Shown here: positions 31,742-41,887 of the stretch, in pieces | How positions within the stretch are numbered: the first letter of the stretch is position 1 | Layout of the letters: the number at the start of each line of letters is the position of its first letter | Source of the DNA: Lama glama | Lineage: Eukaryota | DNA: 64,000 nucleotides | Assembly: GCA_028534125.1 (NCBI GenBank) | Contig: CM052816.1 | Span: forward strand, 53,818,001-53,882,000 | Direction of reading: 5' to 3' | Position numbers and translations under genes: made by a program | Notes under the pieces: model-generated | What the model saw: the letters and a program-made list of their open reading frames with translations, nothing else | What the model was told of the DNA's origin: nothing | The model's database searches: none

Positions 31742-31961
31742 GTACATAATGTCTTAGTACAAACGTAGTATGTTAGCACAGTGAGACACTCACACTGTAC
31801 GTGTAGGAAGTACATGGTAGGAAGGGAAACATTTTACTAACAGAAGTCCACAATTTTAAAAGTTAGGAACCACAAAGTTAACTTACATATACTATACAAT
31901 CTTTACTCATGTTTTCTTTTTAATTACAGATGAAATGATCAGCCTTCTCCTTTCCAACACT
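31742..31961. repeat. Inverted duplication, left arm (220 bp)
   Basis: Reverse complement of 41678-41887, with 6 substitutions and indels of 1, 1 and 8 nt by manual alignment. Confidence 0.95.
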
Positions 31962-33795
31962 TCAAAAATTATAAAAATCTGTTATATGAATAGTTTTGTG
32001 CTGATCACTTTGTTCTTGAAGCATCATATAATCAAACATGCCACTGATCACAAACTGTCCTCCAGAATTAGCATGACACCAAGCTCACAGTTACCTTAAG
32101 ACTGAGGACGTTACCAAACTGTCAAAGAGTGCTATCAACAAGGCATCTTGAGAACTGTCACTATGTCAAATGACATACAAGGACACACGATGTAGAGAGC
32201 TCTCAATCCTGAACACTGGCATGTTTTGGATATGACAGCATTTGCCACCAATGTGTGGCAAAACAAGACCAAACCGCAATATATCTACGGCACAGAAGAA
32301 AGCGTTATGGATTCGTTAAAGAATAGCCGTGAGCAATGAGACTGACAGAGCTGTGGACTGATAAGGTGTAGCTTTAGGAGAAATGCAAGAAAACTATCAT
32401 AGTTATTTATGATAAAGCATATTTGCCAGAGATTAGGTAGCAAGTCTTTGGTACTTACATACCACCCTGGTAAACATTAGGTTTATAAACAAATGAAATT
32501 CAAACTGGAATCAGCAAACCAACTAAATAACTAAGCAAGCAAACCAGTAACACTTTAAAATCAGCATCAGACAAGTACCTTCTTGTAATATCTAATCTTC
32601 ATTGAGCCTTTGAGACATAAAAATACTTCTTAATATCTTAAACTTATCGAATTATTCTTTCCTACCTGTACCATCATTTCTGTTATGGGTAGCATTAAAT
32701 GGCAAATCATACTTAACCAACAAGCCCTAGGATAGTCACAGTCTACTGGATTAGTGTGTGCTTGCTAAAATATAACCACATCATAATACATAGGCAGAAG
32801 AGATAAAGCTAAATATAAAGCTGCTATACAGTACGACTCCAGTTGTACCGAAGACTTTAAGCAAAGGGGAAACCAAAAGTGAATGGTTTTATTTTAAAAT
32901 AGAATACATATAGATAGATATTTATACTAAATAGGTATATGTTTGAGATCCCTCATTATTCTAATGTACAGCATTACACTTGGACTTTGGAACCATAAGC
33001 AGAATAAGATGGTGTTATTGTTTGTCTTGAGTTTTATCATTTCAACTGAAAAACACCGGTATTGTATGTTGAAACAGTTATTTCCCACACTCGATTAGTT
33101 GATACATGAAGCTTTAGAAATTACAAGTCTACAAAATGGCATTTTATTATTTGTTTTTTGCAAGATAATCTGCTACTAAATTTTCTTTGAGTAACTGAAT
33201 AATGCAATTAGACTTAACCATTTTGGTTCCTGTAATGCCAGTTGTCTTGGTTAATTCTGAGGACAACAAATTAATTTCTCCTACCAGCTTTGCTTTAATT
33301 TGCATGTTTTAAATTTTGAATTTTTTCCAGTGGAAATTTAGAACATCATTTAAAATTGATTTTTTATATCTAGACTAAATATTCCGTAGTTTCATGTACA
33401 TAATCTCTTAAAAGCACTCAGAGTCTATTAAAGTTATTCCAAACAGGAGTACATTTACTACCTTCTCCCTTTTAATGCCTGTAAGCACAATATTGTGGAA
33501 CATGAAATTTTTCAGGATGAGATATATTTCTGAAATAAATAGATACAATATGTTCATTGATGTATATGCAGAATTAAGTTGAATTAAATGAAAAAGAAAG
33601 TCTTCAAGTGTTCTTCAAGTCTTCTACCTTATAATTTGCTTTAATACTCTTAGTTTAAAATTGTTCTTACAACAATTTGACTATTAAATTTGACTATTTC
33701 AACCAAACTACAAACATTACATAAATTTTCAATGTTTGGTTTGCCTGTTTTTCACATCCTCCATGTTTTCATGTTTAAATTATCTTATTTCCTAG

Positions 33796-33880
33796 AATCT
33801 CTTGAGCCTGAGGGATCCATTACTGTTTCAATGGGTATTGACTTTTGTGATTCCACTCAGACTGCCAGTTTCCAGTTGTG
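33796..33880 (+). CDS. AP3B1: AP3B1 coding exon (85 nt): (E)SLEPEGSITVSMGIDFCDSTQTASFQL(C)
   Basis: tttcctag acceptor and gtaagt donor at 33881. Contains the conserved GIDFCDSTQ motif. Phases 1 and 2 agree with the neighbouring exons. Confidence 0.97.
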
Positions 33881-36249
33881 GTAAGTTCAATTGTTCATCT
33901 GTATTTCATATTACCTTTAAAGGATAGCAGATCAAAAACAAGGCTTTAAACAGCTTTTTCTTTGAGAGACAAAACAGTTAGACACAAATGTGCTTTTCTT
34001 GGGCAATGTTTAGACTGCTATGGAATAGTTGTACAAATTGTGTACAATATATGTATTTTTAGTATTTGTTACACAGCTAGCCATTACCGTCTGCCATATG
34101 TGGTTGAACTTCATAGTTTGTTGGTTAAAAAAAGAAGCTACTGCTAAATATTTTTTTTGCTTGTCTTAGTTCTGTGCTTTTGGAAAATTTATGAGAAAAT
34201 TCATGAGGAATCAAAAACTTTAGTAATAGTATTGGCTAGCCTAGAGAAGATATCTTCTGAAACATCTTATATGTTGTCCTGAGACTCTTAAATGGAGAAT
34301 TATTGATTCTGTCAGTACCAAAAACGCATACATTTTTCCCTTTTTATTTTTAGTTTACAAACTGCTTTCGATAAAATTCAAAAGAGAATATGTATTAGTT
34401 GACAGAGGTTTCATAGGTGAATAATATTCAAAAGAGGTTTTCTAGGATTGGGTTTTGTTGTTGTTACTGTTTTCATATGATATTTTATACATTTCTGATG
34501 AATCTAAGATATGATTTGTTAGTTTGATTTGCAGTTGCTTTGTTCTTATTTTAACAAGAATTGAGACATTTTATGTATCTAAATTTTAGCTAGCTTCTAA
34601 TAGAATTTGTTATGATAAAAATCTCCAAGTTTAGGAAATAGACATTTTAAAGTAAATTTATAGGTTAAATATAGTGAACCTTTCTTTTTCATATGCCTTT
34701 TCAGTTTACCAGTAATTCAGGCCTAATATTAAACCATTTATTGCTGAGAACCTGCAATGATGAATATAAGCAATGTAGCATAACACATTGATTTTATGCA
34801 GATCATCACCTTTATGTTTTGGGAGGTCTGCTATATTAGTGATATATAAAAACTGATTACTTTTCCCAACATTGCCTAGTAATTGTTTATTATTTTTCTA
34901 TTAGACAACACAGATCAATATTACTGAGCACAAGACTATGAGTAACATCACTCTAAATAGATTTGCCTCCAACACCAGAGGTACATTCATTTTAATGATT
35001 TCAACAATGTGAGCCCAATGACAAAGCTTATGCACTAAGTTACGGCAAAGTAAGAACTAAAAAAATTATTTTTTCTTTTCAGTTTATATCAAAAACCCTT
35101 TATATGTAATGAGGTAGGGTTTTATTTTTCTCACTACAAAGATTTTCTCTTTAGTCCTTTAGACAAGATATGCATCTTTTCTTTCACAATTAACTAAATC
35201 CCTTTAGGGGTAAATATTTAGGTAGTGTTTGACTTTTAGCACTTTATGGAAAGTGCATATGAATAATTTTTTCTCAATTTCTCTTAAACATTTTAGGAAA
35301 ATGATGAATTTATTTTAGATAGAATTTATTTAGATAAATTTAGAATTTATTTTAATATTTTAGCTATTACAAGTATTTGCATTAATATGTTTTTCTGTTG
35401 TGAAGGCATAAATTAGTAATTTATTTTAGATTTCTATTAAACACATAAGCACACTAGATCAAAAATTATTTTTGTGTGTGTTCCAAAAAGAACACTTTGT
35501 CTTGCATCAAATGTAATTGATCCTGAAGCAGTGTAATCACAATTACTCACTTTCTTAATTGGCCTGCCCAAAATCAGAAAATGGAAACCGATCGACACTG
35601 TTGAAATCAATAGCTTCATAGTAGTGCTCGTGGGGGTAGGGAGATAGTGGTAATGGGTAGATCAATTGGTCTTAGATGCCAATCACTGACTGTGCCTTTT
35701 GCATAGTAAGTAGCACTTTTTGCTTAGTGATGTGCTGTATTAGTCTTAGTAGTTCAATAAGAAGGGAAAAAAAGCAAGAATGGCTGATAATGAATTTTTT
35801 CCTCAAAATACATTAATACAAATCAATACATAAAATCATGGGTAATAAGAGCATGTTTGATAAGAAGCCTTCAGAAGTGCTGAGAACATGGACTGTGAGC
35901 CTTCCAGGTATACTTCTGTTTATTAAAAAAAAAGGGGACAAGAATAAAATGATCCTACTTTAGCTTCTAGATGAATTTTCTGTATCATTATAGTTATATG
36001 ATACATATATATAGATCGATAAAACTATTATATATAACTATATAGTTATATGGATACTTGATAAGTATTAATGTCTGGTTTTTTTGCTTTGCATTTTAAA
36101 TGGTCATCAAATTAAGTCCTTGATTAAATGTATTGAGATTGAAAATGTGTATCATATACATAAATGTTTCTCTCTAAAAGTAGATGCTGTACATAAATAG
36201 GTCTCACCCTTGCAATTAGCAGATACTAATGTATTAACTAGTATGAAAA

Positions 36250-41095: not shown

Positions 41096-41159
41096 GTAGT
41101 GTTCCAGTTTTATTACATTTGTCTCATAAGACCCATTTTAGATGAACTTATATCCTTAG

Positions 41160-41403
41160 TTTTTTTAAATACTTTTGTTGAAGTATAATCAGTTTACAAT
41201 GTTGTGTCAATTTCTGGTGTACAGCACAGTACTTCAGTCATATACTAACATACATATATTCATTTTCATATTCTTTTTAACCATAAGGTACTATAAGATA
41301 TTGAATATAGTTCCCTGTGCTATACAGTATAAACTTATTGTTTATCTATTTTATATATATATATATGTTATTTAGTATCTGCAAATCTCAAACTCCCAAT
41401 TTA
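41160..41403 (-). mobile_element. Short 5'-truncated L1 3' end with a 10-bp TSD
   Basis: gttgaagtataatcagtttacaatgttgtgtcaatttctggtgtacagc. TSD atatccttag at 41150-41159 and 41404-41413. Confidence 0.9.
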
Positions 41404-41677
41404 ATATCCTTAGATTTTCACACATAATTACATGTTAACAGCCACAGAAAATAAACCATGCCTTGTCCAAAAGTAGCAAAAGTGAAACATATACAGTCAA
41501 GTCAAGTCGGGTATATTAGTCTCTGACACACAGGTTGTTGCTAGTGGGGGCATTTCGAGAATCACCTTTCTCCCCCAAACCTAAGTCTGCTGCTTACCCA
41601 CTTCGGTTTCGTATATGCCTTAGAAGGCATGTCTCCTTTCCCTGCTTTCACCAGGGGAGTAAGTGGTATCCTTCAGG

Positions 41678-41887
41678 AGTGTTGGAAAGGAGAAGGCTGA
41701 TCATTTCATCTGTAATTAAAAAGAAAAGATGAGTAAAGATTATATAGTACATGTAAGTTAACTCTGTGGTTTTAAAATTGTGTACTTCTGTTAGTAAAAT
41801 GTTTCCCTCCTACCATGTACTTCTACACGTACAGTGTGAGTGTCTCACTGTGCTAACGTACTACGTTTGTACTAAGACATTATGTAC
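41678..41887. repeat. Inverted duplication, right arm (210 bp)
   Basis: agtgttggaaaggagaaggctgatc...gtactaagacattatgtac is the reverse complement of 31742-31961. Confidence 0.95.

What the first reader, a model, noticed from the sequence alone, without database searches (positions are those of the whole stretch)
31742..41887. Near-identical ~210-bp inverted repeat pair flanking the 85-nt AP3B1 exon
Seen in the sequence: 31742-31961 is the reverse complement of 41678-41887, with 6 substitutions and 3 indels (1, 1 and 8 nt), about 9.7 kb apart. I do not recognise the unit as a transposon, and it has no poly(A) tail or TSD. The arms lie in the introns on either side of exon 33796-33880. Established knowledge: inverted complementary intronic sequences form long pre-mRNA duplexes that promote exon skipping, back-splicing (circRNA) and ADAR editing, and can mediate inversions. 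Inference: skipping this 85-nt exon would shift the frame, so the pair could lower AP3B1 output in a lineage-specific way.
Basis: partly seen in the sequence, partly recalled or inferred. Interest (0 to 1): 0.7.

Follow-up and report, generated by a model that had tools for sequence, protein, structure and literature searches.

The report
Old inverted copy brackets AP3B1 exon
A 210-base piece of intron DNA lies twice, facing opposite ways and 9.7 kb apart, on either side of one short exon of what is likely the AP3B1 gene, and a related species has both copies too; it is likely an old, neutrally decaying scar of DNA repair and is predicted to have little effect on splicing.

Summary
It is not an artefact: 14 DNA runs hold the right-arm region, and the one laid (X10) shows both arms and no third copy at 85% or more. 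It is not young: a relative about 2.8% diverged (likely the other camelid tribe, about 16 Myr) has both arms. All but one of the arm differences (a 1-nt indel) arose after that split, so the copy was made, or last homogenised, shortly before it. Since then the arms changed at the flank rate (10/403 against 22/781, p=0.85) with no compensatory change. One sense cDNA contig across the right arm shows no A-to-G cluster (at most 1 of 66 A). The predicted duplex is strong (-334 kcal/mol) and skipping would likely trigger NMD, but editing of Alu pairs decays over about 800 bp, and 85 nt is short for a circle. Skipping and back-splicing were not tested. Verdict: a local templated inverted duplication of a known kind, likely neutral.

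The parts
31742..31961 (+). Left arm (220 nt), in the intron upstream of the 85-nt exon
   Evidence: also in DNA run X10 and in the relative (runs X15, X18), recognised by loose ends equal to its flanks
41678..41887 (-). Right arm (210 nt), inverted copy in the downstream intron; its 8-nt and one 1-nt loss are specific to the window's lineage
   Evidence: tables 4 and 8 (X10 records 4 and 6; X17 record 12 spans it with both junctions)
33796..33880 (+). 85-nt coding exon between the arms (exon 24 by recalled human numbering); skipping shifts the frame
29188..29419 (+). Upstream coding exon (232 nt)
45825..45922 (+). Downstream coding exon (98 nt); in the skipped frame the stop comes 6 nt after its end, in the next exon (51215-51353)
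41622..41641 (+). Flank words next to the right arm that repeat the arm's first 20 nt: 7 nt direct, then 10 nt inverted; weak hint of a templated junction
   Evidence: an inverted word of 10 nt or more in 12 of 1500 random places, about 3% over four junctions
31908..31929 (+). Acceptor-like pyrimidine tract plus AG inside the left arm; no good donor behind it
   Evidence: one of 19 such sites among 1112 AG in the two introns; the only near-consensus donor within 570 nt lies 399 nt away and is weak

Best explanation
The two arms are one 210-220-base piece of intron present twice in opposite orientation in this species and in a relative, likely made by a single template-switch or patch-repair event shortly before the two lineages split, and likely decaying neutrally since. 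Shown: two copies with distinct flanks; both present in a relative 2.8% diverged; no TSD or poly(A); post-split changes at the flank rate. Inferred: during repair of a break or a stalled fork, a nascent strand switched to a template about 10 kb away on the opposite strand, copied about 220 nt and rejoined. The right arm is the more likely recipient (weak evidence). In the pre-mRNA the arms can pair, but the right arm is made 9.7 kb (roughly 3-5 minutes at a recalled 2-3 kb/min) after the left one and 7.8 kb after the exon's donor, so pairing is predicted to be rare and the exon mostly included; rare skipped transcripts would be removed by NMD.
For: Real and two-copy: 14 DNA runs of 4 organism labels hold 0.93-0.95 of 105 sampled words of 41410-42400. 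In X10, the only DNA run laid, the arm splits into two paths: one identical to the right arm, one with 5 substitutions and 10 gaps as in the left arm. The shared pieces have depth about 16 against 7-10 for the unique ones, and the only loose ends at the arm edges are the left arm's flanks (8 of 9 records shown). Old: X15, X17 and X18 differ from the window at 22 of 781 flank positions, yet X17 record 12 spans the right arm with both junctions, X15 record 9 bridges its low junction, and X15 record 10 and X18 record 16 are the left arm. Timing: over 41705-41887 the only arm difference shared by both species is the 1-nt indel at 41822; all 6 substitutions and the other 2 indels sit on one arm of the window's lineage. 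Neutral: arms 10/403 against flanks 22/781, Fisher p=0.85; of the 6 mismatches 1 is G-U and 5 break pairing, none is compensated. No hyper-editing in one sense cDNA contig: at most 1 of 66 A, P=0.008 if 10% of A were edited. Distance: the Alu editing formula gives 1.5e-5% above background at 9716 nt (PMC4066801 passages). Known class: 21 opposite-strand non-tandem duplications among 166 local rearrangements in human reads (PMC5829575 passages).
Against: The counts are small: 10 substitutions cannot exclude mild constraint. In the relative the arms are still about 99% alike over the 193 nt where both are seen (1 indel, 1 substitution), and its left arm shows 0 changes where 2.7 are expected (P=0.07); that contig may however be a blend of both arms (inference from how such assemblers collapse bubbles). 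[quoted passage not shown] The editing test rests on probably one molecule, and contigs drop rare variants; average Alu editing of 1.34% is not excluded (P=0.78). No empty site was seen, so microhomology, target deletion and direction are not shown. Skipping and back-splicing are untested.
Confidence: 0.78

Rival explanations
1. The pair is a working loop-out switch: the arms pair across the exon, cause regular skipping and NMD, and tune AP3B1 dosage in this family.
For: Duplex of -334 kcal/mol, the strongest in the window. Skipping gives a stop 130 nt before the last junction. The exon's acceptor has the weakest pyrimidine tract of the four compared (11 of 16; others 12-15). A 220-bp reverse-complement insert causes skipping in mouse Tbxt. 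The pair has lasted in two lineages and is about 99% matched in the relative.
Against: Arms change at the flank rate; 5 of 6 substitutions break pairing and none is compensated. The span is 9716 nt against 1448 nt for the TBXT pair, where even the 4188-nt pair is disfavoured. The right arm lies outside the 5000-bp windows tested for Alu-pair enrichment (PMC13019027 passages). No editing cluster in one cDNA contig. HPS2 is recessive (PMC13354856, start of abstract), so small dosage changes are unlikely to be seen by selection (inference).
Confidence: 0.09
2. The duplication is much older, and the arms were made alike again by gene conversion just before the split or are still being converted in the relative.
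For: Near identity of the arms at the split; 0 changes in the relative's left arm over 193 nt (P=0.07). At 41687 and 41704, and at one base inside the 8-nt piece, conversion cannot be excluded, because one of the four arms is not covered or lacks the site.
Against: At every site covered in all four arms, three of four agree or the split is by arm (41822), never by species. The similarity ends sharply at both edges with no degraded extension.
Confidence: 0.07
3. The unit is a piece of an old, low-copy DNA transposon (hAT/Charlie-like MITE) and the arms are two insertions.
For: Sequence at 31638 and at about 31857-31875 resembles hAT/Charlie termini as I recall them; no call supports this. Copies under 85% identity elsewhere in the genome could not be searched.
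Against: The two candidate ends match at best 10 of 20 against a null median of 11, and a loose scan finds such end pairs at many places of the window. The arm edges do not coincide with the candidate ends. No TSD; no third copy at 85% or more in X10. Part of the left arm may still overlap an old repeat fossil, which would not change the duplication model.
Confidence: 0.04
4. Assembly artefact, or the scar of an inversion of the 9.7-kb spacer.
For: Inverted duplicates can mark staggered inversion breakpoints (recalled).
Against: An independent DNA run and three runs of a relative show both arms with their own flanks. The exon between the arms is in the gene's orientation and in frame.
Confidence: 0.02

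Closest known systems
Localized non-tandem duplication, opposite strand (PMC5829575; passages read)
   Same: A short segment copied nearby in the opposite orientation; 21 of 166 local rearrangements in that survey; template switching (MMBIR/FoSTeS) is discussed as a cause of such rearrangements.
   Different: Those are recent human differences with a known ancestral state; this one is shared by two species and no empty site was seen.
Class 2 templated sequence insertions (PMC5110952; passages) and germline MMB-TI (PMC8421209; abstract and first part of section 10)
   Same: No TSD, no poly(A) tract, a patch-like copy of genomic sequence; a weak hint of templated words at one junction.
   Different: TSIPs are described as coming from distant regions and being polymorphic; here the template is 10 kb away in the same gene. 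Junction microhomology could not be measured.
TBXT AluSx1-AluY loop-out and the mouse Tbxt insRCS/insRCS2 alleles (PMC10901737; passages)
   Same: Inverted pair of similar length (220-297 bp) in the introns on both sides of one exon; non-Alu sequence suffices.
   Different: There the Alu pair is 1448 bp apart, the skip is in frame and was shown. Here the span is 9716 nt, the skip would shift the frame, and none is shown.
Inverted Alu pairs as ADAR substrates and splicing modifiers (PMC4066801, PMC13019027, PMC13019944, PMC7006430; passages)
   Same: Long intronic duplex potential; such duplexes are far better tolerated in pre-mRNA than in mRNA.
   Different: Unique two-copy sequence with no competing copies and higher identity (93-99%), but about 12 decay lengths apart.

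Membership tests
Localized opposite-strand non-tandem duplication / class 2 templated insertion | Two copies, nearby, opposite orientation, unrelated flanks | tested here: met
Localized opposite-strand non-tandem duplication / class 2 templated insertion | No TSD and no poly(A) tract | tested here: met
   joined flanks and arm ends
Localized opposite-strand non-tandem duplication / class 2 templated insertion | Microhomology, microdeletion or templated bases at the junctions | tested here: inconclusive
   3-nt broken match before one edge; 10-nt inverted word at another edge, about 3% by chance over four junctions; no empty site to compare
Localized opposite-strand non-tandem duplication / class 2 templated insertion | Single copy and empty site in an outgroup | not testable with these tools
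   no genome of the species or of outgroup mammals is held; one metagenome scan gave 0 matches
hAT/Charlie-type MITE | Terminal inverted repeats bounding the unit | tested here: not met
   best 10/20, null median 11; candidate ends are not the arm ends
hAT/Charlie-type MITE | 8-bp target-site duplication | tested here: not met
   none at the arm edges or beside the candidate ends
hAT/Charlie-type MITE | Many dispersed copies | tested here: inconclusive
   only two loci at 85% or more in one DNA run; older copies not searchable, no Dfam
Loop-out exon-skipping pair (TBXT type) | Inverted complementary arms in both flanking introns | tested here: met
Loop-out exon-skipping pair (TBXT type) | Skipped isoform that depends on both arms | not tested
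   no reads were laid over the exons; dependence on the arms needs an experiment
Conserved complementary regions under selection | Slower change than flanks, compensatory substitutions | tested here: not met
   10/403 against 22/781, p=0.85; 0 compensated; low power, two species
ADAR hyper-edited intronic duplex | A-to-G cluster on the sense strand of the arms | tested here: inconclusive
   at most 1 of 66 A in one cDNA contig, probably one molecule; no DNA of the same individual
circRNA-promoting reverse-complementary match | Back-splice junction of the enclosed exon | not tested
   no reads were laid over the exon; 85 nt is below the reported medians of 169-253 nt

The most novel reading that the evidence does not exclude
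A natural, non-transposon counterpart of the engineered Tbxt insRCS2 allele: one repair accident before the camel-llama split placed a unique 220-bp duplex, free of competing copies, across a frame-shifting AP3B1 exon. It drives NMD-coupled skipping over 10 kb, stronger in the lineage that keeps it about 99% matched than in the one where it fell to 93%, and so sets AP-3 dosage (pigment, platelet and cytotoxic granules) differently in the two tribes.
Probability: 0.07. Interest if true: 0.6.

Novelty: new member of a known kind. Interest (0 to 1): 0.2.

Why it matters
As it stands it is an ordinary but well-dated example of a local inverted duplication and a possible family-level marker. Its use is as a natural test of how far apart a unique, near-perfect intronic duplex can be and still pair, free of the competition that clouds Alu studies, with a 99% and a 93% version in sister lineages. 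Were skipping shown, it would be a non-transposon route to lineage-specific dosage control of a gene whose loss causes Hermansky-Pudlak syndrome 2.

Tried and rejected
Genome-wide copy count: no whole genome is held for this window, so copy number rests on one DNA run at 85% or more. MITE idea: my first reading, dropped. I also first took the 8-nt loss in the right arm as proof that it is the copy; the relative's right arm keeps those 8 nt, so it says nothing on direction. My first age of 2-14 Myr (assumed rate 2.2e-9) is replaced by the two-species comparison. Rfam: 1 match in the window, a tRNA-like piece of a SINE, none in the arms. Tandem repeats: none in the arms. PDB sequence search with a neighbouring exon: 0 hits. 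Metagenome scan with a 22-nt word of the arm: 0 matches. Earlier-findings look-ups near the locus, by sequence and for relatives: nothing; by words with the gene name: nothing relevant. The 6 A>G differences in the right flank of the RNA-labelled runs were considered as editing and taken as germline: same sites in three studies, 5 T>C in the flanks, 3 of 6 at CpG. The cryptic acceptor in the left arm is unremarkable (19 of 1112 AG pass the same filter). PMC9374477 (passages) gave no date for the tribe split. Print: searches 'AP3B1 + circRNA', '+ exon 24' (47), '+ camel' (54) and '+ exon skipping' (55) listed no title or abstract opening on this pair; I saw listings only, the library lacks most subscription papers, and no supplements were opened (circRNA tables such as those of PMC6965140 could list AP3B1 circles).
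Full report
Observation. Self-BLAST of the window gives 31742-31961 against the reverse complement of 41678-41887 at 204/220, E 1.4e-87. The differences are 6 substitutions and indels of 1, 1 and 8 nt, and similarity stops sharply at both ends. The other three self-matches at E below 1e-5 are 75-78% pairs of a tRNA-like SINE and of L1-like 3' ends (the family labels are recalled, and the tRNA-like head of one SINE is the only Rfam match). 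The coding exons on the + strand are 29188-29419, 33796-33880, 45825-45922, 51215-51353 and 62207 onward, so the 85-nt exon is the only one between the arms, 1834 nt after the left and 7797 nt before the right. The name AP3B1 and the exon number 24 are recalled from the human gene. That the genome is a camelid's is inferred from earlier notes on this genome (unchecked) and from the simple tRNA-derived SINE with a target duplication, which fits the description of vic-1 (PMC3531059 passages; no sequence compared).

Real, and two copies. The stretch 41410-42400 is held at 0.93-0.95 of 105 sampled words by 14 DNA runs under four organism labels, and at 0.31-0.35 by six RNA-labelled or RNA-guessed runs; four further rows hold next to none. 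I laid 4 of these 24 runs on that stretch at 85% likeness. In DNA run X10 the arm interior splits into a path identical to the right arm and a path with the left arm's 5 substitutions and 10 gaps. The pieces shared by both arms have depth 16.2 and 15.9 against 6.8-10.4 for the unique pieces. One record bridges the high junction with 60 nt inside the arm; the low junction has 30 nt inside, one short of the tool's criterion. The only loose ends at the arm edges are exactly the left arm's flanks (checked). Eight of nine X10 records were shown. This excludes an assembly artefact and a young multi-copy element; copies under 85% could not be searched.

Age. X15, X17 and X18 (three studies) turned out to be a relative: 22 substitutions in 781 flank positions (2.8%), the same wherever more than one run covers the site. 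X17 record 12 spans 41484-41928, the whole right arm with both junctions; X15 record 9 bridges the low junction; X15 record 10 and X18 record 16 are the left arm with its flank. With four arms the differences can be placed. Window right arm only: 41728, 41742, 41764, the 8-nt loss and the 1-nt loss at 41807. Window left arm only: 41750, 41783, 41858 and probably one base within the 8 nt. Relative's right arm only: 41839 (one run), and 41687 and 41704 (its left arm not covered there). Shared by both species: only the 1-nt indel at 41822. So the arms were almost identical at the split; with 0 substitutions before and 10 after, the interval between copying and the split is at most about 0.6 of the time since. 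If the relative is the other camelid tribe (inferred from the divergence), the split is about 16.3 Myr old (PMC5577142 passages), and the copy roughly 16-26 Myr. Caveat: the relative's left arm rests mainly on one contig that could be a blend of both arms.

Selection. The arms differ between species at 6/210 (right) and 4/193 (left), together 10/403 against 22/781 in the flanks, Fisher p=0.85. In the window's lineage 7 changes fell on the arms where 6.1 are expected; in the relative's right arm 3 where 3.0 are expected; in its left arm 0 where 2.7 are expected, P=0.07. In the window's pre-mRNA the six mismatches are one U-G, three A-C, one C-U and one G-G, none compensated. This is what neutral decay gives, with low power. 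Against my reading, the relative's pair is still about 99% matched over the 193 nt seen; the 7:3 split between lineages is not significant (p=0.34).

RNA. The arms are predicted to form a duplex of -334 kcal/mol, against -99 to -196 for the four other inverted pairs found among these introns, two of which also bracket exons. Skipping the exon gives a stop 130 nt upstream of the last junction, so NMD is predicted by the recalled 50-55-nt rule. X17 record 12 has an adapter-like 5' loose end (recalled as a template-switch oligo) and a poly(A) loose end at a genomic A-rich stretch, so it is a sense cDNA of intron RNA, probably one amplified molecule. It shows A>G at 2 of the arm's 66 A: 41742, which is also the left-arm state in the DNA run, and 41687, seen in all three runs of the relative. 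At most 1 of 66 has P=0.008 under 10% editing, 0.15 under 5% and 0.78 under the Alu mean of 1.34%. Hyper-editing of that molecule is excluded; low editing is not.

What the literature predicts. Alu editing decays exponentially with about 800 bp (PMC4066801 passages), which leaves nothing above background at 9716 nt. In TBXT the working pair is 1448 bp apart and the 4188-bp pair is disfavoured, but a 220-bp non-Alu reverse complement is enough for skipping in mouse (PMC10901737 passages). Enrichment of inverted Alu pairs at skippable exons was tested up to 5000 bp (PMC13019027 passages); another study reports effects over a range of distances, with captured duplexes closer than background (PMC13019944 passages). 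Single-exon circles have medians of 169-253 nt (PMC6376117 passages). Long intronic duplexes are tolerated far better than those in mRNA (PMC7006430 passages).

Mechanism of origin. There is no TSD, no poly(A) and no significant terminal inverted repeat. That fits a templated copy made by template switching or patch repair, as in opposite-strand non-tandem duplications (PMC5829575 passages), class 2 TSIPs (PMC5110952 passages) and germline MMB-TIs (PMC8421209, abstract and first part of section 10). This step is inferred: no empty site was available. The one hint on direction is a 10-nt inverted plus 7-nt direct echo of the arm's first 20 nt in the flank of the right arm (about 3% by chance over four junctions for the 10-nt word), which would make the right arm the recipient. 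Earlier unchecked notes on this genome list similar unique inverted duplications in JAKMIP2, MAJIN, KCNN3, ADAMTS12 and MCC; I did not test them and use them only as a lead that the class is common.

Verdict. Observation confirmed; interpretation partly supported. A new member of a known kind: an old local inverted duplication shared by two lineages, most likely neutral (0.78), with a small chance (about 0.09) of acting as a skipping switch. Interest 0.2. The pair was not seen in four paper searches (listings only, no supplements opened).

Noticed in passing
window 19624-19760 and 25446-25568: Two tRNA-derived simple SINEs in opposite orientation in one intron (78% alike). The first has an A tail and a target duplication of about 15 nt with one or two mismatches; likely vic-1-like (label recalled).
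   Followed up: partly
window 45080-45223 and 48656-48802; 24142-24256 and 44798-44911: Ordinary repeat pieces also form weaker inverted pairs (70% and 79%; about -100 kcal/mol) across the next exon and across two exons.
   Followed up: partly
window 41178-41405 and 45005-45223: Inverted pair of L1-like 3' ends within one intron, 75% alike, 3.6 kb apart, -196 kcal/mol; closer than the reported pair and so perhaps the likelier editing substrate.
   Followed up: no
window 41687 and 42067-42325: Runs of the relative show A>G at 8 places against G>A at 1 over 41410-42400; read as germline (5 T>C, several CpG sites), but DNA of the relative would settle it.
   Followed up: partly
window 41905-41928: An A-rich stretch just after the right arm is where one cDNA contig ends in poly(A) (X17): likely internal priming; an intronic poly(A) site is not excluded.
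   Followed up: no
window 60454-60515: 23-nt tandem repeat, 2.7 copies, 94% alike, in the last intron.
   Followed up: no
window 16257-16336 and 16264-16462: A 30-nt inverted repeat with a 20-nt loop (87%) overlaps an 80-nt direct repeat (76%) in a long intron.
   Followed up: no
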